From the NCBI GenBank assembly GCA_944329425.1, contig CALVIG010000001.1:34015-98014 (forward strand): a stretch of 64,000 nt of DNA, in the 5' to 3' direction. The notes beneath the pieces are model-generated. The model had not been told where the DNA came from and made no database searches. It saw nothing but the letters and a program-made list of their open reading frames with translations. The position numbers and the translations under genes were made by a program. This DNA is from an uncultured Bacilli bacterium. Its GTDB lineage: Bacteria > Bacillota_I > Bacilli_A > RF39 > UBA660. Positions 8,009-62,499 of the stretch are shown here, in pieces; the first letter of the stretch is position 1, and every line of letters starts with the position of its first letter.

Positions 8009-9001
8009 TTAAAACCTCACTTTCATGATGCGGTTAACAACGTACGCATAAATACCGTAAAGTAAAACCATTATACAAAGTAATATGTTACCTTCGGTGG
8101 TATTAAAAAGAGGCAAAAAATAGCTTGTGTTTAAAGCCGTTATAAACAAAACAAACACAAAAGGCATAAATAATAATACCTTACTTATCATTGAAGAACT
8201 AGATGTTAAAGATTTCATTTCTTGTTTTAGTTTTTGCTTATTAAATAACATTTTTTCAATTGACGAAAACACCTTAATTATGTTACCACCAGTTTTATTT
8301 AAAATGCTAAGTGATGAGGTTATGTAACTTACTTCTTCCGACTCTACCCTTTTACTAAACCTATCAAAAACAACGTCAAGCGATAAACCATAACTAATTT
8401 CCAAATGCATTTTTTTAAACTCTTGTTTTATTGGCCCTTTTAGTTCATGCGCTACTATTTCTATGGCTTGCATGGTACTTCTACCTGATCTAAAAGCATT
8501 ATTCATTATTATTATTGCGTTTAATAATTCTTGCTCAACTTGTTTTTTCTTGCGATAATCTGAGAATTTAAAGTATATATCAAGCAAGAAAAATCCTAAT
8601 AAACCAAATAATAGTATATCAAATAAACTAGGTAAATTTCCTTCTATTATCCTTGCAAACGAAATAATAAACACGAATAGTAAGGAAATAATAAACTTGT
8701 TACTAACAAAGTCCATTGCACTAATATCCTTTGTTTCATCATAAGAAATGTATTTATTATATTTTAAACTATACTTTTTCATAACGATTGACTTCTTTAA
8801 ATATGAACTTAGTTTATGAATGATTTTAGAATACTCATTATGTAATAAATCAAAAAGTGAAACAGATTTGTTTTTAATAGAGTCAATACTGTATTTAGCT
8901 ATTCTTTTTTCTATTTTAAGTGCCTTGTTATATATTATTAAATAAAATATTATAAAGGCTAAAATAACCATAATTATGGTTTGAATAATAAATACGTTCA
9001 T
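8009..9001 (-). CDS. Tad/T2SS-F family inner-membrane protein (TadB-like)
   Basis: TM-cytoplasmic domain-TM architecture adjacent to the CpaF/TadA ATPase. Confidence 0.5.
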   Translation of the reverse strand: MNVFIIQTIIMVILAFIIFYLIIYNKALKIEKRIAKYSIDSIKNKSVSLFDLLHNEYSKIIHKLSSYLKKSIVMKKYSLKYNKYISYDETKDISAMDFVSNKFIISLLFVFIISFARIIEGNLPSLFDILLFGLLGFFLLDIYFKFSDYRKKKQVEQELLNAIIIMNNAFRSGRSTMQAIEIVAHELKGPIKQEFKKMHLEISYGLSLDVVFDRFSKRVESEEVSYITSSLSILNKTGGNIIKVFSSIEKMLFNKQKLKQEMKSLTSSSSMISKVLLFMPFVFVLFITALNTSYFLPLFNTTEGNILLCIMVLLYGIYAYVVNRIMKVRF

Positions 9002-45900: not shown

Positions 45901-46219
45901 GTTTTAGAATGAAAAATCACTCTGAATTCAAGCAAACCCCAAATTCATTTTTAAATATTATCAGTATTTAATGTGATATCTTATTCTCATGAGTTTTCTT
46001 TCTCATTTACAATTGTAAGGCCTAGATACGAATAAGATTAGTTTTTTAAACTATTTTCAACTATCTTTAAACATAAGATAGATAATAGATATTAAAAATA
46101 TCGTTTAGAAAGAAACAAACTTTCTTTCTAAATATAATATCTATAGTAAACCTACCTAGGTTAACTTCATTATAACACGTTATTTTGTTTTGTCAACACA
46201 TTTTAATATTATTCTTAAT

Positions 46220-51659: not shown

Positions 51660-51700
51660 AAAAAGTGCATAAGCATTAAAAACTTATGCACTTTATTTTA
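51660..51700 (-). terminator. intrinsic terminator ending the 4-gene cargo operon
   Basis: agtgcataagcattaaaaacttatgcact: a perfect 10-bp stem followed by a T-rich tract on the minus strand. Confidence 0.6.
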
Positions 51701-51713
51701 ATTAAATTTAATA

Positions 51714-52196
51714 TTATCTATTATCAGACAAAACTATATTATTATTTGATTCTATATTGTTTCTAATTATCTTAGAAATATGATTAGGTTTAAAGTTTTC
51801 TTTATCTAAGTCTTCTATTTTTATCCAATGAAATTTATGTTCCTTTTCTACACCTTTATCTATTTCTTTTATTGTAAAAGAATTTTTAGGTAGTTTAGAC
51901 AATGACTTAAGTTTATAATAATAATTAATTTCTTGATTTACTTTACCATCAGTGATATAAATGTTTTCGTTAATACAAAATAAATCTATTATTTCAACAT
52001 CTATTTTTAATTCTTCACGCATTTCTCTTAACATTGCTTGCTTTGTACTTTCTCCAATCTCAACATGTCCACCTGGTAAACAACAACCAATAAATTTTTG
52101 AGTTTCATGGACTAAAAGTCTATCATCTTCTATTAACATTCCACTAACTCTTAATCGAAATTTTCCATTTTTTGTCTTGATTTTTATATCTTCCAT
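51714..52196 (-). CDS. NUDIX hydrolase
   Basis: Nudix box GGHVEIGESTKQAMLREMREELKI. Confidence 0.7.
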   Translation of the reverse strand: MEDIKIKTKNGKFRLRVSGMLIEDDRLLVHETQKFIGCCLPGGHVEIGESTKQAMLREMREELKIDVEIIDLFCINENIYITDGKVNQEINYYYKLKSLSKLPKNSFTIKEIDKGVEKEHKFHWIKIEDLDKENFKPNHISKIIRNNIESNNNIVLSDNR

Positions 52197-52928
52197 TTAA
52201 TATCCTCTTTTCTTCATTTCATTTTCTACAAATTTTATATGTTCTGGCAAATCAACACCAATCGTCTTATAATTAGTATGTAAAAATTTTATTTTATATC
52301 CTTTTTCAAGCATTCTTATCATTTCTATGCCACTTTCTAATTTTTCCAATTCGCTTTTTTTTATGTTTAAAAATTGTTTAAGAACATCATAACGATAACC
52401 ATATAAACCAAGAACTCTATATGAATATCCATACTTAAAATCATGTGGTATAGGTGACCTAGAAAAATACATAGCGAAATTATCCGAGTCTAAAACAACT
52501 TTTACGTTATTTCTATTTTCATGCTCTTCTTTATTCTCTATTTTAGATACCAAACCTACATAACTTATACTATCATTTTCCAAAAGTTCATCTATGATTT
52601 GATTTATGGATTCAGGGTCTATCAATGGCTCGTCTCCTTGTATGTTTAAATATATATCTCCATCCAATTTTTGTGATTCTAAAGCCAATTTCTCTGCTGC
52701 AGTAGTTGCTTTAATATGATCAAGCCTGCATGGTATATTATATTTAACACATACATCATATATTTCATCATCAGGTGTTACTACATATAATTCATCTATT
52801 CTATCAACCTTGCTAGCCTGTTTATATACCCAATAAATCATTGGTTTTTCATTGATTAAAGCTATGGGTTTACCTGGAAATCTTGAACTTCCCATTCTTG
52901 CGGGAATTAATCCAATTATCTTTTTCAT
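52197..52928 (-). CDS. KdsB-like cytidylyltransferase (CMP-3-deoxy-2-ulosonate synthetase family)
   Basis: GLIPARMGSSRFPGKP, NIQGDEPLI, NVKVVLD...AMYFSRSPIP and LGLYGYR all parallel KdsB. Confidence 0.8.
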   Translation of the reverse strand: MKKIIGLIPARMGSSRFPGKPIALINEKPMIYWVYKQASKVDRIDELYVVTPDDEIYDVCVKYNIPCRLDHIKATTAAEKLALESQKLDGDIYLNIQGDEPLIDPESINQIIDELLENDSISYVGLVSKIENKEEHENRNNVKVVLDSDNFAMYFSRSPIPHDFKYGYSYRVLGLYGYRYDVLKQFLNIKKSELEKLESGIEMIRMLEKGYKIKFLHTNYKTIGVDLPEHIKFVENEMKKRGY

Positions 52929-52935
52929 AATACGA

Positions 52936-53958
52936 CTATCTGCTCCTTATTTTTTTTATTAATTTTTTAACTTCTTCATTCTGCTTTTCATTATCAGTAA
53001 TATGCATTATTATGTCATAGTAATAATCTGTGATTAAATCACAATAATCACTTCTTATTTGTTTTTTTAATCTCATAGTTTTTTTAGACTGTGGAAATCC
53101 ACTTAATGGCTTTAAACGAAAGTCTGGATTATCAAATGAAATTTCCATAACTCTAATATTATAATCAGGTGAATTATAATTATCTTTTCTCAAAGATTGC
53201 ATCATGTGATCATATTTTAAATCTAATTTATACTTTTGTATATCATCAGTACTATAAACATCATATATAAACTCTTTTATATTTTTACTAGGTATAGTTA
53301 TATTTTCCGAAGATAAAATATCTATACCGCTTTCTACTTTTGTAATTGATTTTTCTATTTCATCATAGTAATTTCTTGCTGGTGGCCAAAGTAAGCAATA
53401 ATATGGTTTTTTACTTTTAACAAATAATTCATTAAGCTTTTCTTTTATTATGTTAATCTCATTCTCAGTAAAACCATTTTCTATAAACCATGCAAAACCA
53501 TATTTTCTTCTAGAAACATAAGTGTTATATATTCTAACTGGAATTTCTTTCATATCGTGATATAAAGCTAAAGCCAATCTATGAGAGCCATCATGTAAGT
53601 CATAATTCAAATCTGTTTCAAGATGTGAAGAATCATCAAATCCTTTTTCAAATGATTTTATCAATGTCAAAAATCTTTCATCCCAGTTTTCATTTATTCT
53701 TAGTTGTTGCATCTTTCTATAAATATTAAAACCATAATTATTTAATCCATAATATTCATCTATCGCCAAACATTTAACTGCAATGTCAACAGCATTAAAT
53801 TCAGTATTGTCATATTGGGATAAAAATAAATCAGTAGCAGTCAAGTTCAAATCTACAAAATTTTTATCTTTAAATTTTGGAAATTCGGTAGCAGTCCCAT
53901 TTTGATCTATATATTTGTTCAAATACATTCTATAACCTCCCATCCATGTATTTTTCAT
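52936..53958 (-). CDS. hypothetical protein with DGSHR (ParB/Srx-like?) motif
   Basis: 340 aa. LHDGSHRLALAL resembles the DGxxR motif of the ParB/sulfiredoxin fold. It overlaps the upstream gene by 29 nt. Confidence 0.3.
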   Translation of the reverse strand: MKNTWMGGYRMYLNKYIDQNGTATEFPKFKDKNFVDLNLTATDLFLSQYDNTEFNAVDIAVKCLAIDEYYGLNNYGFNIYRKMQQLRINENWDERFLTLIKSFEKGFDDSSHLETDLNYDLHDGSHRLALALYHDMKEIPVRIYNTYVSRRKYGFAWFIENGFTENEINIIKEKLNELFVKSKKPYYCLLWPPARNYYDEIEKSITKVESGIDILSSENITIPSKNIKEFIYDVYSTDDIQKYKLDLKYDHMMQSLRKDNYNSPDYNIRVMEISFDNPDFRLKPLSGFPQSKKTMRLKKQIRSDYCDLITDYYYDIIMHITDNEKQNEEVKKLIKKIRSR

Positions 53959-55717
53959 AATATTCTTTTATGATTTTTTCATTGAATCTACCTTTGTTTT
54001 CTTCGGGTATTGAATTTAATATTTTTTCCATTTGTAAATATGATAAATTTTTATCTAATAAATATTCTGCATACGTTCTATGCATTCTTCTAAATGCAGT
54101 CATACTATATGCAAAATCCTCTTCCCAATTCAAATGCTTTTTTAAACGTAAAATCTCATTTTCCATTATAGAATAAATATTTTCCAATTTATATTTTCTT
54201 TTATTGGTTAAATCATTTATATAATGTGTCATAACCTCAGTTTTTAAGTTACCTGGTGACCTACCTATACCGCTTACTGAGGTATCAATAATAATGTCCT
54301 GTTTAAAAGTATTATTTTCTATTAAAAGTTGAGCAGAAGAGAATGGTTGACTTAAATTATTATGTAGATGAATCCCTATCTTTATATTTTCATTTAATAA
54401 ATGATTCAATAAACTAAGTTTGTTTTTGAAATCTTTATTTAAAAACATACCAAAAGTATCGACAATAGAAAAAACATCCGGATTAATTTCATTTACTTGT
54501 CTTATCAAGTCAACAACACGTTCGTTACTATAACTAGAAAAATTAATAGGATTAACTGAACATATATAACCAAGTTCTTTTACTTTTTTACAATATTCTA
54601 TACCATCGGATATTAAATTGTCATGAAATGAAACTCTAATCATTTTCACCTTACCACTACATTTTTCTAAATTATTAATATTAAATTTATCAACTTGAGT
54701 AAGTAAAGAAAAAATAGAATTACACGAATTATACTTTGATAACAACTTTTCGGCTGATGAAACATTTGGAAACTTTGCCACATCTGAATCATAAACGCAA
54801 TCTTCTAAAAAACCGACCTCTATTATATCGATATTAGCTTTTATTAGTTTATATATAAAATTCTCAATCGTTTTTTTACCAAACATCGATTTATTAAGAT
54901 GACCCCCATCTCTTAAAGAACAATCTAAGATTTTAATATTTTCATAGTTAACTTGACTATGTATCAAATTAAAATAATTGCAAAGAAATTTAGCGACTCC
55001 ATCATCGTTGTTTGAAAATGTACTAAATTTTATATTATCATTTATTTCTTTCGATGAGTTTTCCATTCTAATGCCGATATCTGAATTTTTCAAACTTTCT
55101 AAATCTGACAAATCATCACCAAATACCATAGTTTTGTACTTTTTCTTTTGTTTTTCCAGTATTTTTAAAATTCCATTCCATTTATTAGTTTCTTTTGGCA
55201 AAATTCTTATCAGATGATTTTTATTATCATAGCTAACATCAGCTAAATCTATAATTTTATTTTTAATAATATCATAGTCTTTTTTAGAACCTCTAACCAA
55301 AAACTTATAATTATCATAACTTTCTATTGCTTTAGATATGGTTAAAGTTGTATCTTCAATAATATCAATATCACTATTATTAGTACAAAATGATGAGTAC
55401 AAATTTTCACTTATAATATCATAATTATTCTGTTTTAAGATTCTTATTATTTCTTTTGAAGTTTTCTTTGGAAAACTATTATGGTAAATTACGTTATACT
55501 TTTGGTCACAAATAAAATTTCCATTAAATGCTGATATGTAATCCGCATCAATATAATTAGCATATTCAATTGTCCTTTTGTAACTTCTTGAAGTACTTAT
55601 AATAATTTTATTGTTACACATTTTACAATCAGCTAAAATTCGTTTAGTATAACTTGATATTTTTCCTTTATTATTCAAAAGTGTCCCATCTAAATCTACA
55701 ATTATAAAATAGTTCAT
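53930..55717 (-). CDS. fusion protein: Cof-type HAD phosphatase (N) + HMGL-like pyruvate-utilising aldolase/synthase TIM barrel (C)
   Basis: IIVDLDGTLL and VFGDDLSDLESL HAD motifs, then KILDCSLRDGGHLN...IDIIEVGF, the HMGL-like N-terminal signature. Confidence 0.7.
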   Translation of the reverse strand: MNYFIIVDLDGTLLNNKGKISSYTKRILADCKMCNNKIIISTSRSYKRTIEYANYIDADYISAFNGNFICDQKYNVIYHNSFPKKTSKEIIRILKQNNYDIISENLYSSFCTNNSDIDIIEDTTLTISKAIESYDNYKFLVRGSKKDYDIIKNKIIDLADVSYDNKNHLIRILPKETNKWNGILKILEKQKKKYKTMVFGDDLSDLESLKNSDIGIRMENSSKEINDNIKFSTFSNNDDGVAKFLCNYFNLIHSQVNYENIKILDCSLRDGGHLNKSMFGKKTIENFIYKLIKANIDIIEVGFLEDCVYDSDVAKFPNVSSAEKLLSKYNSCNSIFSLLTQVDKFNINNLEKCSGKVKMIRVSFHDNLISDGIEYCKKVKELGYICSVNPINFSSYSNERVVDLIRQVNEINPDVFSIVDTFGMFLNKDFKNKLSLLNHLLNENIKIGIHLHNNLSQPFSSAQLLIENNTFKQDIIIDTSVSGIGRSPGNLKTEVMTHYINDLTNKRKYKLENIYSIMENEILRLKKHLNWEEDFAYSMTAFRRMHRTYAEYLLDKNLSYLQMEKILNSIPEENKGRFNEKIIKEYYEKYMDGRL

Positions 55718-55745
55718 AATTCACCCCACAAAATATATTTTTATA

Positions 55746-55812
55746 TAAAAAAAGGTGGCAAACACTTAAGTGTTTGCCACCATGAAAATACTGCCACCAT
55801 TTGGGCAAACAC
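55746..55812 (-). promoter_or_regulatory. transcription attenuator (terminator/antiterminator) in leader of cargo operon
   Basis: Terminator ggtggcaaacac-ttaa-gtgtttgccacc+T8 (55754-55781). An upstream gtgtttgccc (55803-55812) can pair with the terminator 5' arm. Confidence 0.55.
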
Positions 55813-55839
55813 AACACCCAAATTGATTTAATTGCTTTT

Positions 55840-55869
55840 AAAATACAGTATTTACCAAATATTGTCAAT
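55840..55869 (-). promoter_or_regulatory. sigma-A-like promoter (TTGACA-N17-TATTTT with TG)
   Basis: ttgacaatatttggtaaatactgtatttt, upstream of the attenuator. Confidence 0.4.
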
Positions 55870-55934: not shown

Positions 55935-57773
55935 TTATAACAGTTTAGCTATTACTCTTTCTATTTCATCTGTTATATCTTCTTTTAGCACAATATCACT
56001 AAAACCATCATCTAAATAGTATTTTTTAAAATGTTCTTTATCTTTTTCTAACATTGCAACAACTGGTACTTTAAACTTCTTATTCTCCTTTAATTTCTCT
56101 AATGTTGCTAAGGCTGATGTTCCTTTTAACTCATCATCAATTATTATTAAATTATAAAACTCTCCTGCTTTTAATCTATCTATGCAATCTTTACCAGACA
56201 TTGTTGTATTAATATCAATATTATATTTTCCTAAAATATTAGAAATCGTAAATAACTCTTCTTTATTATCATCAACCACCAAAACTCTTTTTCTTCCATA
56301 AACATCTGATGAATATTTTTCAATATCTTTCATTATATCAGTTAGCTCTTCTATTTTACATTTTTGATCTATAACTATTGTAAATGTTGTTCCTTTATCT
56401 TCTTCACTTTTTATGTTGAAACTTCCACCTAATAACTTAATAATTTTTATTGAAACTTTTAAGTCAACGTCTAGTTTATCAAGCTTACTAGTATCACTTT
56501 CATTTAATTCGGATTTATCATCCAATATGTCATTGATTTTTTCTATGTCCATTCCAATACCAGTATCTTCTATGTTTATAATGATTCTTGCAACATCATA
56601 TCTTACTATGGCATCAATATATATCCTTATATATCCTTTTTTTGTATTTTCTATGCAATTCAAAATAACTGACATAAGTACCTGTTTAAACTTAACATTA
56701 TCACCATTAAGACTATTTGGAACATTACTACTTACTTTAAAATCTAATGCAATGTTTTTATCTTTAATCGCATTTTGGATAAGGCCTTTTATCTCATTAA
56801 AGAAAACAGATGTATTATAATAATCTTCGTTTACCTTTATTTTATTAGCATCCATTGATGATATATCTAATATATTATTTAATCTAAATAATATACCATT
56901 TGCATTATCACCTATAATTCTGACCGCATCTTTCTTATCAATATCATTATCTAACTTATCAAAAGCTTTTGTAATTCCGATTATATTTTTAGTTGGTGCT
57001 TTTATTTCTTGAGATGTTTCAAATAAAAATCTAGATTTATCTTCTATTTGATCTTCTAGTAACTCTCTATTCCTTAAAAGTTCATTTACCATTTTAAGAT
57101 CAGGGTTTTCTATCGTAAAATACATAAGTACCGTAACAAAAGCAAAAGCAGAATTAATTACTGTTATACCAGGATTAATTTGCCTTATTACAAAAACAAA
57201 TATCATCATTAAAATTAACATAAAAAGTGGATAATACTTTTTATCTGTTATATGTTTTATATTTGAACAAACACTAAAAATATCAATTATTATAAATAAT
57301 CCACCCATTAAAAGTAAAACGTTAGTAGCCATACCATATGAATAAATGTAATTACCATCGTTAAAATAATAAAGTGGTAATTTAATAACAATTATAGCCA
57401 TTATTACATAAATAATTGTTAGCACACCAATTATACTTTTCCTAGTTTTCTTTAAGCGTTCTTTAAATTTTTCTCTACTTTCAAACGAAATAAAAAACAT
57501 ATATTCAGTAAATAAAAATTCCCATAATAATAAATAAACTAAAAATGCTCTATTAATTATTTCATTTAAAATTCTATAAGTACTAGATACATCTTTATGA
57601 GCTACAAAGAAAAAACACAAAAGTTCTAAAACCAAACCTATCATTGTTATAATAACAAGTCTACTATATAATTTATTTTCTGTATTTTTAAGTTTGCTTT
57701 TCGAAAAATAAACAGTTCCTACAAGTAAACAAAAAAGTAGCATACAACAAATAACTGTTATTCCTATTACCAT
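55935..57773 (-). CDS. hybrid sensor histidine kinase/response regulator with degenerate H-box (His replaced by Gln)
   Basis: Multi-TM N-terminal sensor. The DHp helix FLFETSQEIKAPTKNIIG aligns to FLANMSHELRTPLNAIIG, followed by HATPase G-boxes (DTGIGM, GGSFNIKSEEDKGTTF) and a C-terminal REC domain (VLVVDDN...IIIDDEL). Confidence 0.8.
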   Translation of the reverse strand: MVIGITVICCMLLFCLLVGTVYFSKSKLKNTENKLYSRLVIITMIGLVLELLCFFFVAHKDVSSTYRILNEIINRAFLVYLLLWEFLFTEYMFFISFESREKFKERLKKTRKSIIGVLTIIYVIMAIIVIKLPLYYFNDGNYIYSYGMATNVLLLMGGLFIIIDIFSVCSNIKHITDKKYYPLFMLILMMIFVFVIRQINPGITVINSAFAFVTVLMYFTIENPDLKMVNELLRNRELLEDQIEDKSRFLFETSQEIKAPTKNIIGITKAFDKLDNDIDKKDAVRIIGDNANGILFRLNNILDISSMDANKIKVNEDYYNTSVFFNEIKGLIQNAIKDKNIALDFKVSSNVPNSLNGDNVKFKQVLMSVILNCIENTKKGYIRIYIDAIVRYDVARIIINIEDTGIGMDIEKINDILDDKSELNESDTSKLDKLDVDLKVSIKIIKLLGGSFNIKSEEDKGTTFTIVIDQKCKIEELTDIMKDIEKYSSDVYGRKRVLVVDDNKEELFTISNILGKYNIDINTTMSGKDCIDRLKAGEFYNLIIIDDELKGTSALATLEKLKENKKFKVPVVAMLEKDKEHFKKYYLDDGFSDIVLKEDITDEIERVIAKLL

Positions 57774-57883: not shown

Positions 57884-59782
57884 TTATTTTTTTATTAGTT
57901 TTTTAGTATTTTGTTTTTGTTCATCCTGTTTTTCCAACGCAAGATAATCAATTTTTCCAATAGGAGTCAAAGGCAAACTATCATTAAATTCTACCTCACT
58001 AGGCTGATAATATTCAGGAAGTTCTTTTTGGCACATTGCAAATATTTCTTCTTCTATCTTATTTGTATCATAAGCATTATCTTTTAATACAACATGTACT
58101 TTTGGTACTTTACCTTGCGAAAACTCTAAGTCTCTTATACCAACTACCTTGCATGCCAAAACCATTGGATGCTTAATTACAATATCTTCTATTAAACTCG
58201 GAAATACCTTAAAACCATCTGCTCTTATTATCATTCTTTTTAGTCTATCGACAATAAACAAGTTACCATCGGCATCCATGTAACCAACATCACCAGAATG
58301 CACCCAAGTCAAACCATCTTCGTGTTTTATTAATATTTTATTAGTTTCTTCTTCATTTTTAAAGTAACCAAGCATAGTATTAGGGCCAGTTATACAAACT
58401 TCACCTTTCTCATCATATCCTAACTCTTCACCGGTTTTTGGATCAAAAATGGATATTACCGTGTTAGGAAATGGTATTCCAACACTACCAAGCTTATTAT
58501 TTTCATTAGATGTACAAGCCGATACCGCAGCATTAACTTCCGTCATTCCATAACCTTTTACAACTTTATAATTACAGTTATGTTCTTTTAAGAACTTATT
58601 AGTATCTTCTTCTAACCCCTCATCCATCTTATCTCCTCCAACTGTTGGAGCAATTATATAAGATAAATCTTCGTTTGCTAGCTTTTTACTATGAATTATA
58701 TTTCCATAATGAGATGGAACACCTACCATATGATTTGGTCTATTTTCTATTAATAATTCATCAAATTTTTTAGGATCAAATTGTGGTATTAATATAACTT
58801 CCATACCACAAGCTAATGGTAAATGTAATCCATTACCGATTCCATACGCTATAAATGGTGGCATTATATTTAACCAATTATGTTCTCTTTTGAAATCATA
58901 TCCTGCATTTTCACACTGAAATGAAGCAGCATTAACACTAAAGTTGGATAAAACAACTCCTTTGGATGGACCTGTTGTACCACCAGTATGAACTATTAAT
59001 AATGGTTTATCTTTTTCATACTTCGGATATGGCTCATAATCCTTTGTTTTACCTGCTTTAAAAAACTTAGGCCATGAAATACATTCACCACTTTTTGCAA
59101 ATTTACTTTCATTTTTTTTCATGTCTTTAAAGTAGTCTAATATTATATCTTTCTTTTTTGGCTCTTTTGTACCTTTATTATTAGCTTCTTCTTTTTTATC
59201 TTCATACATGCTATTTATATCTTTAGAAGCTTTTTTAAGCATTATTCCTAAAGGTAAAGAATCAGTTGGTGATACTGTAACAATTTTTTCTACTGTTGTT
59301 TTTTTCTTAACATCTTTTGCTTTATCAGCTGCAACATCAATTATTATAAGCATTTTTGATTCTGCTTCATTAATATAACTTTCTATTCCATCTTTGCTAG
59401 TTCTAGGGTCGACCATGTTAGCTACTGCACCTATTTTACTCAAAGCATAGTAAACATATATAGTTTCAGGAACAGTCGGCATAGAAACCGTTACTATGTC
59501 ACCTTCTTTTACTCCATAAGCTCTAAAGGCTCTTGCGGTTTGGTCTATGTTGTTAATCATTTCACCATAAGTGATTTTCCTACCAAAATAATTTAAAGCC
59601 ACTCTATTAGGATAATTCTTATTATTATCTACTATGTATTCATATATGGTCTTTTCAGGTAGTTTTTTATTTAGTACTTCTTTGTCGTAATATTTAAGCC
59701 ATGGTTTATCAATCGATGGCTTACCAGTTAATTTTTCCATAATTTCCCCCATTGTATAATTATATTTACTGCATTTATAATA
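57884..59782 (-). CDS. AMP-dependent synthetase/ligase (long-chain acyl-CoA synthetase-like); start moved to MEKLTGKP (the ORF-track 5' extension is probably spurious)
   Basis: AMP-binding motif LIVHTGGTTGPSKGV, and YGMTE and GDVGYMDADGNLFIVDRLK motifs. A GGGGGA SD precedes the internal ATG, and a terminator hairpin lies inside the annotated 5' extension. Confidence 0.8.
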   Translation of the reverse strand, partial: YYKCSKYNYTMGEIMEKLTGKPSIDKPWLKYYDKEVLNKKLPEKTIYEYIVDNNKNYPNRVALNYFGRKITYGEMINNIDQTARAFRAYGVKEGDIVTVSMPTVPETIYVYYALSKIGAVANMVDPRTSKDGIESYINEAESKMLIIIDVAADKAKDVKKKTTVEKIVTVSPTDSLPLGIMLKKASKDINSMYEDKKEEANNKGTKEPKKKDIILDYFKDMKKNESKFAKSGECISWPKFFKAGKTKDYEPYPKYEKDKPLLIVHTGGTTGPSKGVVLSNFSVNAASFQCENAGYDFKREHNWLNIMPPFIAYGIGNGLHLPLACGMEVILIPQFDPKKFDELLIENRPNHMVGVPSHYGNIIHSKKLANEDLSYIIAPTVGGDKMDEGLEEDTNKFLKEHNCNYKVVKGYGMTEVNAAVSACTSNENNKLGSVGIPFPNTVISIFDPKTGEELGYDEKGEVCITGPNTMLGYFKNEEETNKILIKHEDGLTWVHSGDVGYMDADGNLFIVDRLKRMIIRADGFKVFPSLIEDIVIKHPMVLACKVVGIRDLEFSQGKVPKVHVVLKDNAYDTNKIEEEIFAMCQKELPEYYQPSEVEFNDSLPLTPIGKIDYLALEKQDEQKQNTKKLIKK

Positions 59783-59974
59783 TAACATCTTTAATAAATA
59801 ATTGCAATTATATAAAAAAGAAACTAATAAAATAGTTTCCTTAGTTTCTTCTTGAACGGAAGTACACATGTGTAATATTTCTTATTGCTAAGTATAATAT
59901 AACATATTTTTCAAAGATTAGCAATAAAATAACATATAATTTTTATATACATTACTATCTTATAAACAGCTATT

Positions 59975-61977: not shown

Positions 61978-62499
61978 CTAATTATGTGTTGTTATTTTTT
62001 TATACACTTCTAAAACCGGTAACATTTCATAAGCAAGACTCCTAAACCTTGGAAATTTTTTAACATGGTCAATTAAAGTTTCCTCTACTTCACTTAATTT
62101 AACAAAGCATAATTTAAACTCGTTTTTTCTTTCATAGTCACTTATATTAATATTATCGTTATTTATAACCGTACTTTTTTTATAAACAAAATAAATCATG
62201 ATGTTTAGCCTGTTTTCATTTGTTCTAAAATAATTTTTAGAATAATGTTTAACCTTCATAAAAGGATAAAAATCATCTTTTTTAGCTTCTATACCAGTTT
62301 CTTCTTTAACTTCCCTTATAAGCCCATCATACACGTCTTCATCTTCTTTTAGGTGTCCTCCAGGGAACTGGTAATCATCATCACAGTAAGCAAGTAAAAT
62401 CTCATCATTATCATTTATCATTATGGCTTTTACCCTTGTTACAACTTCTTTTACATCATCATCATTTAAATTATCTTTATTTATTATTAATTCTTTCAT
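61978..62499 (-). CDS. NUDIX hydrolase
   Basis: FPGGHLKEDEDVYDGLIREVKEETGI Nudix box. Confidence 0.65.
   Translation of the reverse strand: MKELIINKDNLNDDDVKEVVTRVKAIMINDNDEILLAYCDDDYQFPGGHLKEDEDVYDGLIREVKEETGIEAKKDDFYPFMKVKHYSKNYFRTNENRLNIMIYFVYKKSTVINNDNINISDYERKNEFKLCFVKLSEVEETLIDHVKKFPRFRSLAYEMLPVLEVYKKITTHN

What the first reader, a model, noticed from the sequence alone, without database searches (positions are those of the whole stretch)
51714..55717. Element cargo operon: HAD-phosphatase/HMGL-aldolase fusion + DGSHR protein + KdsB-like CMP-transferase + NUDIX – possible non-canonical CMP-ulosonic-acid pathway
The four genes are tightly coupled (overlaps of 29 nt, and gaps of 7 and 0 nt) and are bounded by a regulated leader and a strong terminator. 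KdsB-family enzymes CMP-activate 3-deoxy-2-ulosonic acids. No KdsA or NeuB-type PEP-dependent synthase is present. Instead there is an HMGL-like TIM barrel (LRDGGH; the family makes 4-hydroxy-2-oxo acids from pyruvate or acetyl-CoA plus a carbonyl acceptor) fused to a Cof-type HAD phosphatase. That phosphatase is analogous to KdsC, which dephosphorylates Kdo-8-P. So an aldolase-based route to a Kdo-like or other 2-keto-3-deoxy acid, followed by CMP activation, is plausible. The NUDIX gene and the 340-aa protein with a ParB/Srx-like DGSHR motif are unexplained extras. ParB-fold proteins bind CTP. I do not recognise this gene combination as a described pathway, and it is carried on the excisable element.
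Basis: partly seen in the sequence, partly recalled or inferred. Interest (0 to 1): 0.7.

Follow-up and report, generated by a model that had tools for sequence, protein, structure and literature searches.

The report
Aldolase-based CMP-sugar-acid operon in gut Firmicute
A tightly packed four-gene operon in an uncultured gut bacterium most likely makes a CMP-activated Kdo-like sugar acid, using a pyruvate aldolase instead of the usual KdsA/NeuB synthase, and it includes a widespread, unnamed two-domain protein (ParB/Srx fold plus nucleoside-diphosphate-kinase fold) that turns up next to, or fused to, sugar-acid enzymes in many other genomes.

Summary
Four co-directional minus-strand genes occupy 51714-55717, preceded by a leader with a terminator hairpin and followed by a strong terminator.
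- a Cof-type HAD fused to an HMGL-like domain;
- a KdsB-type cytidylyltransferase;
- a NUDIX with an intact Nudix box;
- a 330/340-aa protein with no Pfam match.

The TIM barrel lies with the DmpG-type pyruvate aldolases (LRDGGH, HxH). The transferase groups with KdsB (E 5e-36) rather than NeuA (E 1e-7). No described pathway was found.

Comparative evidence strengthens the pathway reading. The nearest unfused relatives of the aldolase and the transferase sit beside a true KdsC-family phosphatase in polysaccharide loci that lack KdsA and NeuB.

The "DGSHR" protein is not an unexplained extra. It is a ParB/Srx domain joined to an NDK-fold domain that keeps the catalytic-His motif. The family has about 3,300 clusters. 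Members lie beside NeuB and CT-HAD, are fused to a cytidylyltransferase or a Maf glycosyltransferase, and pair with NUDIX in an unrelated pyruvyl-transferase module.

The sugar, the acceptor, and the roles of P340 and NUDIX remain inferred. The claim that the operon is cargo of an excisable element is unproven. Verdict: a new variant of a known kind of pathway.

The parts
55745..55868 (-). Promoter-like site and 5' leader. It contains a small hairpin (UUUGGGUG...UGCCCAAA), a duplicated GGUGGCA motif, and an intrinsic-terminator hairpin (55781-55754) plus U7 about 25 nt before the start codon. An upstream GUGUUUGCC copy could pair with the terminator's 5' arm, which would make it a candidate antiterminator.
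   Evidence: MFE -33.5 kcal/mol, z = -2.5. About 75 nt are 100% identical to the leader in sister-species loci L037, L039 and L040, whose proteins are only 71-79% identical. No Rfam family matches. The leader is absent from the more distant loci L006 and L008.
54953..55717 (-). N-terminal Cof-type HAD-IIB phosphatase domain of the 595-aa fusion (residues 1-255).
   Evidence: PF08282 E 1.4e-39. Motifs I-IV are intact in the window copy: DLDGT, STSR, K, GDDLSD. The nearest solved relatives are sugar-phosphate phosphatases (YidA, SupH, BT4131). In 4 of 24 family members the nucleophile Asp is lost.
53930..54952 (-). C-terminal HMGL-like (DRE-TIM) domain of the fusion, with a helical tail. Predicted class II pyruvate aldolase acting as the ulosonate(-phosphate) synthase.
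   Evidence: PF00682, 74 bits against a cut-off of 29. The best PDB match is 3dxi 'putative aldolase' (E 8.8e-20), followed by the 4-hydroxy-2-oxovalerate aldolases 4lrs and 1nvm. LRDGGH and HLHNN align with the DmpG catalytic and metal motifs. These residues are invariant in 24 fusions.
53407..53928 (-). P340 N-terminal domain: ParB/Srx-like fold carrying the invariant DGSHR motif. Start taken at M11.
52936..53406 (-). P340 C-terminal domain: nucleoside-diphosphate-kinase-like fold with an invariant H-x-T-D in the place of the NDK H-G-S-D.
52197..52928 (-). KdsB-family CTP:3-deoxy-ulosonate cytidylyltransferase.
   Evidence: PF02348 E 3.5e-44 and NF003952 228.9 bits against 193. KdsB structures match at E 5e-36, NeuA at E 1e-7. 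P9, R11, S15, R16, K20, D99 and D226 align with A. aeolicus P8, R10, T14, R15, K19, D95 and D219 (PMC3149649). It is 52% identical to the CT of polysaccharide locus L016.
51714..52196 (-). NUDIX hydrolase. The start codon abuts the CT stop codon.
   Evidence: PF00293 E 3.5e-13. The Nudix box G-x5-E-x7-R-E-x2-E-E is intact, read directly from the sequence. It is fused to the CT in L008-L011 and L027 (406 aa). It lies adjacent to the module in most loci. A NUDIX gene also directly follows a P340-like gene in the unrelated module L041.
51662..51694 (-). Intrinsic terminator closing the operon.
   Evidence: 13-bp stem, 7-nt loop and a T-rich tail.

Best explanation
The operon encodes a compact route to a CMP-activated 3-deoxy-2-ulosonic acid (Kdo-like, C6-C9) that does not use KdsA or NeuB.

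Core steps:
1. The DmpG-like class II aldolase domain adds pyruvate to a phosphorylated aldose. This gives a 4-hydroxy-2-oxo (3-deoxy-ulosonate) phosphate.
2. The fused Cof-type HAD removes the phosphate. This is the KdsC/NANP step.
3. The KdsB-family enzyme couples the anomeric hydroxyl to CMP using CTP.

Accessory proteins. The ParB/Srx plus NDK-fold protein (P340) is most likely an NTP-dependent, phospho-His-type phosphotransferase. It would install or move the phosphate 'handle' on the sugar substrate. The NUDIX would work with it on a nucleoside-diphosphate compound, for example by releasing the sugar or sugar-phosphate from an NDP-sugar. On this reading the logic parallels the vertebrate sequence GNE (hydrolysing epimerase/kinase), NANS, NANP and CMAS.

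Regulation. Expression appears to be gated by a conserved terminator/antiterminator leader.

Shown by computation: domain identities, catalytic motifs, operon structure, conservation of the gene set, and linkage of each part to ulosonate enzymes elsewhere.

Inferred: direction and substrates of the aldolase, the phosphatase substrate, the roles of P340 and NUDIX, the identity of the sugar, and the acceptor of the CMP-sugar.
For: 1. Domains and motifs.

2. LRDGGH with a His after the Gly-Gly is the aldolase (DmpG) signature, not the LRDGEQ of the Claisen synthases (established family knowledge). It aligns with DmpG LRDGSH.

3. An independent 'same pathway, unfused' arrangement exists in polysaccharide loci L016-L018: a KdsB-like CT (52% identical), a 521-aa HMGL-like protein (42% identical) and a KdsC-family phosphatase (TIGR01670 157 bits against a cut-off of 107). 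The loci carry Wzy/Wzx/GT/RgpF genes and no NeuB or KdsA in the 17.5 kb held.

4. The core fusion-P340-CT set is present in all 11 GTDB species hits and in the metagenome loci. The order is the same in all of them except L023, where the CT gene comes first. NUDIX is adjacent, divergent or fused to the CT.

5. P340 relatives are linked to ulosonate enzymes in several ways:
- They lie next to NeuB plus a CTP_transf_3-HAD fusion in three loci.
- They are fused to CTP_transf_3 (P0252) and to a Maf_flag10_N/MptE-like glycosyltransferase (P0219).

6. A phosphatase always accompanies P340-like genes: HAD in the window type, a KdsC-like HAD in the NeuB type, and His_Phos_1 in the pyruvyl-transferase type. 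That pattern fits a kinase/phosphatase bracket.

7. The ParB/Srx fold includes small-molecule kinases (SerK, SbnI) and sulfiredoxin (PMC12704722).

8. The NDK fold with its His motif conserved.
Against: - There is no biochemical evidence.
- No glycosyltransferase or other consumer of a CMP-sugar lies in or next to the module in any context.
- The hosts are Gram-positive-type Clostridia/Bacilli MAGs with no known Kdo-containing structure.
- The HAD nucleophile is lost in 4 of 24 fusion homologues, so the phosphatase step is not universally needed.
- P340-like proteins also occur in pyruvyl-transferase/SDR modules that have no cytidylyltransferase. Their role is therefore not tied to CMP activation as such.
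- The NDK Lys12 equivalent is Trp in P340, and profile comparison with NDK is not significant.
- A canonical Nudix box argues for NDP-X pyrophosphatase chemistry but gives no substrate.
- The curated equivalog cut-offs are not reached for kdsB (148.6 against 155.2) or for DmpG (58.9 against 286).
Confidence: 0.5

Rival explanations
1. The core pathway is the same, but P340 acts after CMP activation rather than before the aldolase. It would be the missing consumer or modifier of the CMP-ulosonate, for example a phosphotransferase that decorates the sugar acid, or a transferase onto a cytoplasmic acceptor. NUDIX would clear or process the nucleotide by-product.
For: P340 is the only protein in a self-contained module with no assigned step, and no GT is present. 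The P340 core is fused directly to a cytidylyltransferase and to a Maf-type nonulosonate glycosyltransferase, and often to methyltransferases and a nucleotidyltransferase-like domain. Those partners are typical of late tailoring steps. The ParB fold binds CTP or other cytidine nucleotides (PMC12704722).
Against: P340-like proteins also occur in modules with no CMP-sugar enzyme. No glycosyltransferase-like fold was detected. NUDIX enzymes do not normally act on CMP-monophosphodiesters (established family knowledge).
Confidence: 0.2
2. The module is a nucleotide-centred conflict or defence system, or makes a small soluble metabolite, rather than a glycan-precursor pathway. It would make or consume a cytidine-nucleotide derivative. 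That could be a soluble CMP-acid signal or antimetabolite, or a CTP-draining cycle. P340 and NUDIX would control the nucleotide pool.
For: The module is self-contained and mobile. It lies beside TraG/T4SS genes and serine recombinases. It is rare: 11 of 185,579 species genomes. The NUDIX matches the PADLOC candidate PDC-S07 (E 9e-11). A NUDIX domain and a His_Phos_1 phosphatase (SixA) have each been reported to dephosphorylate phospho-NDK in other bacteria (PMC11784022; PMC12934123 by abstract only). The gene triplet P340-like/NUDIX/His_Phos_1 occurs in L041.
Against: No PADLOC hit for the other three proteins. Relatives of every component sit in ordinary polysaccharide loci. In two lineages the module lies among housekeeping or cell-wall genes without mobility genes. 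An aldolase plus a sugar phosphatase is hard to fit into a pure nucleotide-depletion system.
Confidence: 0.15
3. The module is a salvage or catabolic unit. The aldolase cleaves scavenged host or dietary ulosonic acids (Kdo, Kdn, sialic-acid-like) to pyruvate plus an aldose. Alternatively, the CT activates a scavenged sugar acid for surface display.
For: DmpG-type aldolases are reversible and work catabolically in their best-known role (established knowledge). The gut habitat is rich in sugar acids.
Against: No transporter, lyase partner or downstream catabolic genes are conserved with the module. A cytidylyltransferase and a phosphatase fused to the aldolase are anabolic features. The same trio in polysaccharide loci points to synthesis.
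Confidence: 0.1
4. The TIM barrel is a Claisen-type acyl-CoA-dependent synthase (homocitrate/FrbC-like). The product would then be a CMP-conjugated non-sugar acid, as in phosphonate pathways.
For: HMGL-like enzymes and cytidylyltransferases co-occur in some phosphonate clusters (10.1101/2021.04.07.438883 appeared; not read in detail). There are weak hits to LeuA and homocitrate synthase models.
Against: The motif is LRDGGH, not LRDGEQ. The best matches are aldolases. No PEP mutase is present in any locus. The CT is KdsB-type.
Confidence: 0.03

Closest known systems
Kdo activation pathway KdsA, KdsC, KdsB (Gram-negative LPS and capsules)
   Same: It has a phosphatase step followed by a KdsB-family cytidylyltransferase that keeps the CTP-loop and both Mg-binding Asp residues. 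The predicted intermediate class is a 3-deoxy-2-ulosonate phosphate. Unfused relatives use a true KdsC-family phosphatase.
   Different: There is no KdsA (PEP-dependent, DAHP-synthase fold) and no KdsD in the loci. The synthase is replaced by an unrelated DRE-TIM pyruvate aldolase. The phosphatase is Cof-type HAD-IIB fused to the synthase, not HAD-IIIA KdsC. The hosts are Gram-positive-type lineages. Two extra proteins (P340, NUDIX) are present.
Kdn/sialic acid routes with phosphorylated intermediates: the Bacteroides Kdn-9-P synthase/phosphatase/CMP-Kdn synthetase route, and the vertebrate GNE-NANS-NANP-CMAS route (from established knowledge)
   Same: The logic of synthase, phosphatase and CMP-transferase is the same. 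The vertebrate route also begins with release of a sugar from an NDP-sugar followed by a kinase, which is the role proposed here for NUDIX plus P340. Distant P340 relatives sit beside NeuB and CT-HAD fusions.
   Different: The synthase here is not NeuB/NANS. The kinase candidate has a ParB/Srx plus NDK fold, not a ROK/ASKHA kinase fold. The hydrolase candidate is a NUDIX, not a hydrolysing 2-epimerase. None of these steps has been demonstrated.
DmpG/BphI 4-hydroxy-2-oxovalerate aldolases (class II, DRE-TIM), and PDB 3dxi 'putative aldolase'
   Same: The fold, the R-D-G-x-H catalytic motif and the H-x-H metal ligands all match.
   Different: Identity is low and the equivalog cut-off is missed by a wide margin (58.9 against 286 bits). 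There is no DmpF dehydrogenase partner and no match to the DmpG communication domain. The domain is fused to a phosphatase and linked to a cytidylyltransferase. The expected acceptor is a sugar phosphate, not acetaldehyde.
ParB/Srx-fold small-molecule phosphotransferases (SerK, SbnI, sulfiredoxin)
   Different: No Pfam PF02195 match. The C-terminal partner is an NDK-fold domain. The 2025 ParB-CTPase fold survey does not mention NDK or nucleoside diphosphate kinase at all (PMC12704722).
Nucleoside diphosphate kinase and its reported regulators: the MutT1 NUDIX domain, and the His_Phos_1 enzyme SixA
   Different: No sequence-level NDK match. The Lys12 equivalent is Trp. The domain is fused to ParB/Srx. 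The resemblance in partners is a lead, not a test.

Membership tests
KdsB / CMP-Kdo synthetase (PF02348, NCBIfam kdsB models) | Profile score above the curated cut-off | tested here: inconclusive
   PF02348 151.6 bits against 22.6 and subfamily model NF003952 228.9 against 193 are both met. The equivalog TIGR00466 (148.6 against 155.2), NF009905 (233.1 against 255) and NF003948 (145.6 against 281) are not met.
KdsB / CMP-Kdo synthetase | CTP-loop residues (P, R, T/S-R, K) and the two strictly conserved Mg-A Asp residues | tested here: met
   P9, R11, S15, R16, K20, D99 and D226 align with A. aeolicus P8, R10, T14, R15, K19, D95 and D219 (residues from PMC3149649).
KdsB / CMP-Kdo synthetase | Closer to KdsB than to NeuA/PseF-type enzymes | tested here: met
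   KdsB structures match at E 5e-36 to 4e-24, NeuA at E 1e-7 and 5e-6. The PseF model matches at E 5e-7 over 60 residues only.
KdsB / CMP-Kdo synthetase | The substrate is Kdo, made by KdsD/KdsA/KdsC | tested here: not met
   No DAHP_synth_1/KdsA, NeuB or SIS isomerase is present in any copy of the module. The actual substrate cannot be tested with these tools.
DmpG/BphI-type class II pyruvate aldolase (HMGL-like, DRE-TIM) | PF00682 above the gathering score; R-D-G-x-H and H-x-H motifs | tested here: met
   74 bits against 29. The motifs align with 1nvm and 4lrs and are invariant in 24 homologues.
DmpG/BphI-type class II pyruvate aldolase | Equivalog score, and a DmpF-type dehydrogenase partner | tested here: not met
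   TIGR03217 58.9 against 286 and NF006049 65.3 against 229. No dehydrogenase partner is present in the loci.
Cof-type HAD-IIB phosphatase | PF08282 match and catalytic motifs I-IV | tested here: met
   E 1.4e-39. DLDGT, STSR, K and GDDLSD are present in the window copy. TIGR00099 scores 114.8, below its cut-off of 137. The nucleophile is lost in 4 of 24 homologues.
KdsC (HAD-IIIA, YrbI family) | Match to TIGR01670 / KdsC architecture (about 170-190 aa, capless tetramer type) | tested here: not met
   The window HAD is the Cof/IIB type with a cap. A true KdsC homologue (157 bits against 107) accompanies the unfused relatives in L016. The window domain is an analogue of KdsC, not a member.
NUDIX hydrolase | PF00293 match and Nudix box GX5EX7REUXEEXGU | tested here: met
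   50.2 bits against 21.1. The box reads G-GHVEIG-E-STKQAML-RE-M-R-EE-L-K-I, with only the final G replaced by K (sequence). No specific subfamily could be assigned.
ParB/Srx superfamily (PF02195) | Sequence-profile match | tested here: not met
   No Pfam or NCBIfam hit at E <= 0.01. The PDB profile search found nothing relevant.
ParB/Srx superfamily | Fold similarity and a conserved DGxHR/GxxR-type nucleotide-binding motif | tested here: met
Nucleoside diphosphate kinase (PF00334) | Sequence-profile match | tested here: not met
   No Pfam hit. hhalign against E. coli Ndk gives probability 0.2, not significant.
Nucleoside diphosphate kinase | NDK fold with the catalytic His in an H-G-S-D-like context | tested here: inconclusive
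NeuB/KdsA PEP-dependent ulosonate synthases | Presence of PF03102 or PF00793 in the operon | tested here: not met
   Absent from the window operon and from all related modules.

The most novel reading that the evidence does not exclude
The ParB/Srx plus NDK-fold protein defines a large, unnamed enzyme family of about 3,300 clusters at 50% identity. On this reading it is a dedicated partner of acidic-sugar pathways, namely ulosonate and pyruvyl-sugar pathways. It would carry out a previously undescribed phospho-His-mediated phosphoryl (or nucleotidyl) transfer on the sugar or on its CMP derivative, together with a NUDIX. The four-gene module would then produce a so-far undescribed CMP-activated 3-deoxy-ulosonic acid in Gram-positive gut bacteria, through a class II aldolase that has displaced KdsA/NeuB.
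Probability: 0.3. Interest if true: 0.8.

Novelty: new variant of a known kind. Interest (0 to 1): 0.62.

Why it matters
All characterised routes to CMP-activated ulosonic acids (Kdo, Kdn, sialic, legionaminic and pseudaminic acids) start from a PEP-dependent KdsA or NeuB synthase. That statement rests on my own knowledge of the field.

A pyruvate-aldolase-based route would be a non-homologous replacement of the committed step. Genome screens that count NeuB or KdsA to predict sugar-acid display would miss it. It would also imply Kdo-like sugars in Gram-positive members of the human gut flora.

The analysis also gives a first functional anchor for a sizeable family of 'hypothetical' proteins with a ParB/Srx plus NDK fold. 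This extends the ParB-CTPase fold into sugar metabolism.

It also flags a perfectly conserved leader that may be a new cis-regulatory RNA.

Both proposals are directly testable with four soluble proteins.

Tried and rejected
1. Known defence system. PADLOC and PHROGs gave only generic NUDIX and HAD hits.
2. Known riboswitch in the leader. Rfam in E-value mode found nothing there. The only real hit in 45-60.5 kb is a PGK RNA motif at 45951-46043.
3. Leader conserved across all modules. It is not. L006 and L008 have unrelated leaders. An exact-pattern scan of JGI metagenomes for the leader found nothing.
4. The 118-aa ORF downstream as a fifth component. The equal-length ORF in the sister species is not homologous.
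5. Phosphonate or Claisen-synthase reading. Rejected on motif and context grounds.
6. The 190-aa tail of the 521-aa unfused aldolases being related to P340. It is not. It gives a weak MptE-like match (E 0.0019).
7. Sequence-profile link between P340 and NDK or PDB proteins. Not significant. Only fold comparison works.
8. AFDB Foldseek search. The library was unavailable.
9. Literature. Eight searches were run, one further query was rejected as malformed, and three papers were consulted. None described HMGL-like plus KdsB/NeuB/cytidylyltransferase, or a ParB/Srx-NDK fusion.
10. Source annotations. All cluster members are unnamed or 'hypothetical protein'.
11. Direct att-site or empty-site test of the 'excisable element'. 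Not possible with the scans remaining.

Full report
**1. What is there**

On the minus strand of the window, four ORFs run head to tail:
- 53930-55717 (595 aa);
- 52936-53958 (340 aa as the longest ORF);
- 52197-52928 (243 aa);
- 51714-52196 (160 aa).

The window has about 26% G+C throughout, with no compositional break at the operon.

The second gene almost certainly starts at its eleventh codon. All 31 aligned homologues begin there. A GGGAGG ribosome-binding site lies 7 nt upstream of that ATG, and the junction reads TAG-A-ATG. The '29-nt overlap' is therefore more likely a 1-nt gap. The 7-nt and 0-nt spacings are as reported.

Upstream there is a promoter-like TTGACA-17-TATTTT (55868-55840). 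Next comes a 12-bp, 7-GC hairpin with a U-run (55781-55754), about 25 nt before the start codon. Downstream there is a 13-bp terminator (51694-51662).

**2. Domain identities**

- Hydrolase_3 / Cof-type HAD (E 1.4e-39, residues 5-245) fused to HMGL-like (E 1.7e-20, residues 261-518).
- CTP_transf_3 (E 3.5e-44). The KdsB subfamily model NF003952 scores above its cut-off (228.9 against 193).
- NUDIX (E 3.5e-13).
- The 340-aa protein matches nothing in Pfam, NCBIfam, PADLOC or PHROGs.

The HAD has all four catalytic motifs. Its nearest solved relatives are sugar-phosphate phosphatases.

The TIM barrel's best solved relative is 3dxi, a 'putative aldolase' (E 8.8e-20). The DmpG-type 4-hydroxy-2-oxovalerate aldolases come next. 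Its LRDGGH aligns with DmpG LRDGSH, and its HLHNN aligns with the metal-binding HAHHN. From established knowledge of the family, a His two residues after the Asp marks the pyruvate aldolases, whereas the acyl-CoA Claisen enzymes have LRDGEQ. These residues are invariant in 24 fusion homologues.

The cytidylyltransferase matches thirteen KdsB structures at E 5e-36 to 4e-24, and NeuA only at E 1e-7 or weaker. It keeps the CTP-loop residues and the two Mg-binding aspartates defined for Aquifex KdsB (PMC3149649).

The Nudix box is intact.

**3. The module is a conserved unit**

The fusion gene, the 340-aa gene ('P340') and the CT occur together in every relative found. The order is the same in all but L023, where the CT gene comes first.

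- There are 74 P340 homologues, mostly from gut metagenomes.
- There are 11 of 185,579 GTDB species representatives, all uncultured Clostridia or Bacilli MAGs.

NUDIX takes one of three positions: downstream, divergently upstream, or fused to the C-terminus of the CT (406 aa).

The contexts differ:
- between ftsW and murG in the window;
- beside TraG/T4SS genes;
- between leuS and mraZ;
- beside other serine recombinases.

No copy has a KdsA, a NeuB, a PEP mutase, a transporter or a glycosyltransferase next to it.

**4. Independent support for an aldolase-based ulosonate route**

Beyond the fusions, the nearest relatives of the aldolase domain are HMGL-like proteins of about 520 aa (37-43% identical). 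In two separate families of polysaccharide loci they are flanked by a CTP_transf_3 gene and a 172-aa HAD gene. These loci carry Wzy, Wzx, GT2, RgpF and glycerophosphotransferase genes.

In L016 the details are:
- The CT is KdsB-like and 52% identical to the window enzyme.
- The HAD is a genuine KdsC-family member (TIGR01670, 157 bits against a cut-off of 107).
- No NeuB or KdsA is present in the 17.5 kb held.

So the trio 'HMGL-like aldolase + KdsC + KdsB-like' exists as a glycan-locus pathway. The window operon is a compacted version in which a Cof-type HAD is fused to the aldolase.

**5. The 'DGSHR' protein**

A confident AlphaFold model (pLDDT 92.7) has two domains.

The following are invariant or nearly invariant across the whole superfamily:
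- a Y-x3-Q-x2-R motif;
- DGSHR;
- a Trp at the start of the NDK-like sheet;
- K298, R302, Y312, D315, H319 and D322 (long-ORF numbering).

H319-I-T-D occupies the place of the NDK catalytic H-G-S-D. The Arg register is reproduced by hhalign, but that alignment is not statistically significant. This correspondence is therefore an inference.

The 2025 survey of the ParB-CTPase fold does not mention NDK or nucleoside diphosphate kinase at all.

**6. P340 is not an 'extra'**

A profile search of 1.84 billion representative proteins finds 3,307 clusters at E <= 1e-3 and 485 at E <= 1e-30. Most are about 500 aa long and carry an additional domain. That domain has a G-G/S...D-x-D motif and a weak hit to the nucleotidyltransferase family DUF2204 (E 0.008).

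Fusions:
- CTP_transf_3 + P340 core (P0252);
- Maf_flag10_N/MptE-like nonulosonate glycosyltransferase + P340 core (P0219);
- methyltransferase + P340 core (P0217, P0240).

Neighbourhoods:
- Three distant relatives (31-36% identical) lie beside a NeuB synthase and a CTP_transf_3-KdsC-like HAD fusion in glycan loci. The nucleotidyltransferase-like domain is either fused or encoded as a separate neighbouring ORF.
- A third context lacks any cytidylyltransferase. It comprises polysaccharide pyruvyl transferase + SDR + P340-like + His_Phos_1 phosphatase + an Hsp70-like ATPase. In one of these loci a NUDIX gene directly follows the P340-like gene.

Three elements recur with P340:
- an enzyme that adds a pyruvate- or PEP-derived C3 unit to a sugar;
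- a phosphatase;
- often a NUDIX.

**7. Mechanism proposed**

Core, confidence about 0.5-0.6: pyruvate plus an aldose-phosphate gives a 3-deoxy-ulosonate-phosphate (aldolase). That is dephosphorylated to the ulosonate (fused HAD). The ulosonate is then converted to the CMP-ulosonate (KdsB-like CT).

Accessory steps, lower confidence: NUDIX and P340 prepare the phosphorylated acceptor. NUDIX would cleave an NDP-sugar. P340 would be an NTP-dependent phospho-His phosphotransferase that places the phosphate handle removed later by the HAD. This uses every domain in one linear path. It mirrors the vertebrate GNE/NANS/NANP/CMAS logic (established knowledge). It also explains why a phosphatase always accompanies P340-like genes.

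The main rival for P340 is a late role on the CMP-sugar, as a tailoring enzyme or transferase. The CT and Maf fusions favour that rival.

One lead was not tested. A mycobacterial NUDIX domain (PMC11784022) and the His_Phos_1 enzyme SixA (abstract) have been reported to dephosphorylate phospho-NDK. NUDIX and His_Phos_1 are the same two partner families seen next to the NDK-like P340.

**8. What argues against the proposal**

- Nothing biochemical is known.
- There is no consumer of a CMP-sugar in or near the module.
- The hosts are not known to make Kdo-like sugars.
- Four of 24 fusion homologues have lost the HAD nucleophile.
- P340-like proteins also work in modules with no CMP chemistry.
- The equivalog-level cut-offs for kdsB and DmpG are not reached.

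The module's rarity and its frequent association with mobility genes keep a conflict-system or soluble-metabolite reading alive.

**9. Leader**

About 75 nt of the leader are 100% identical between the window and a sister species. That stretch includes a small hairpin, two GGUGGCA repeats and the terminator. The sister species' operon proteins are only 71-79% identical, and the flanking intergenic sequence has diverged.

An upstream GUGUUUGCC can pair with the terminator's 5' arm. This is the classic antiterminator arrangement, read directly from the sequence.

No Rfam family matches. More distant modules have other leaders. A JGI metagenome scan found no further copies. With only two distinct sequences, no covariation test is possible.

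So 'regulated leader' is supported as a conserved attenuator-like element. Its effector is unknown.

**10. Element cargo**

The 15 kb between ftsW and murG contains:
- a 234-aa ORF, an AMP-dependent ligase and a hybrid histidine kinase/receiver;
- the operon and two small ORFs;
- a large serine recombinase, a GNAT, an HTH protein and a 375-aa ORF.

In the sister species the block AMP-ligase (80% identical) / HK-RR (50-70%) / operon lies next to leuS, with no recombinase.

The operon may ride on the recombinase element in this genome, but this has not been demonstrated. The recombinase could equally belong to a smaller adjacent insertion.

**11. Novelty and score**

Eight literature searches found no paper that combines an HMGL-like aldolase with KdsB, NeuB or cytidylyltransferase genes, and none describing a ParB/Srx-NDK protein. 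All database members are unnamed.

I rate this a new variant of a known kind of pathway (CMP-ulosonate biosynthesis) with two unusual features:
- non-homologous replacement of the committed synthase;
- a sizeable uncharacterised accessory enzyme family.

Interest is 0.62. A glycobiologist would be surprised, and the proposal is directly testable. However, the evidence is entirely inferential, and the end product and its acceptor are unknown.

Noticed in passing
window 45951-46043 (-): A full-length match to the Rfam PGK RNA motif (RF03040, 87.4 bits against a gathering score of 50.8, E 5e-11). It lies in the gap between the 375-aa ORF and murG, at the edge of the 15-kb insertion in the dcw cluster.
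   Followed up: no
window 55745-55835 (-); L037 about 8090-8190: The operon leader is 100% identical over about 75 nt between two species whose proteins are 71-79% identical. It has a terminator/antiterminator arrangement and duplicated GGUGGCA motifs, and it matches no Rfam family. It is a candidate new cis-regulatory RNA or protein-binding attenuator.
   Followed up: partly
L016 7280-10090; L012 7317-9575 (also L013-L015, L017, L018): Polysaccharide loci carry a trio: a CTP_transf_3 cytidylyltransferase (KdsB-like in L016-L018, more PseF-like in L012-L015), a 521-524-aa HMGL-like aldolase, and a 172-aa HAD. The HAD was scored as KdsC-family only for L016. In L012-L015 it lies about 5 kb downstream of the aldolase and was not scored. 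No NeuB or KdsA is nearby. The aldolase has an extra C-terminal domain of about 190 aa with a weak MptE-like match (E 0.0019). This appears to be an uncharacterised glycan-locus version of the same pathway.
   Followed up: partly
L033 6210-10823; L034 6320-11660; L041 1795-7671: A separate conserved module: polysaccharide pyruvyl transferase, SDR, P340-like protein, His_Phos_1 phosphatase and an Hsp70/actin-like ATPase. L041 also has a NUDIX gene between the P340-like gene and the phosphatase, and a further 255-aa ORF. It sits in unrelated genomic contexts and its function is unknown.
   Followed up: partly
L030 8001-12604; L035 7364-12058; L036 1016-5770: NeuB-type loci in which a P340-like core carries, or is adjacent to, a domain of about 180 aa resembling a nucleotidyltransferase. 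It lies beside a CTP_transf_3-KdsC-like HAD fusion.
   Followed up: partly
L006 5554-6105; L019 and L020 5580-6098: A 2H-phosphoesterase (LigT-like, two H-x-T motifs; TIGR02258 E 5e-6) is encoded immediately upstream of the fusion gene in one branch of the module, next to the divergent NUDIX.
   Followed up: no
window 61978-62499 (-): A second, unrelated NUDIX gene (173 aa) sits between mraY and ftsW inside the dcw cluster. It is conserved in L001-L004.
   Followed up: no
L029 5161-5704; L037 8211-10010: There are signs of decay in some copies. L029 joins the first 66 or so residues of the HAD directly to the last 119 or so residues of P340, which looks like a deletion remnant. In L037 the fusion gene is split into 340-aa and 241-aa ORFs, whereas it is intact (599 aa) in L038-L040. 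The split could be a frameshift or an assembly error.
   Followed up: no
A5 alignment (P0143, P0149, P0152, P0153): Four of 24 HAD-aldolase fusions have lost the HAD nucleophile motif (DxDxT has become NMCST, NLYKT, NLHKT or NLDGT), while all aldolase motifs are kept. The phosphatase domain may be non-catalytic in that branch.
   Followed up: partly
window 55935-57773 and 57884-59869 (-): A hybrid membrane histidine kinase/receiver (612 aa, with no DNA-binding domain) lies directly upstream of the operon and is syntenic with it in every sister-species locus examined. An AMP-dependent ligase (661 aa) lies upstream of the kinase; of the sister-species loci it is kept only in L039, and L037, L038 and L040 have a PlsC-type acyltransferase in that position. 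This is a possible functional link to regulation or lipid attachment.
   Followed up: no
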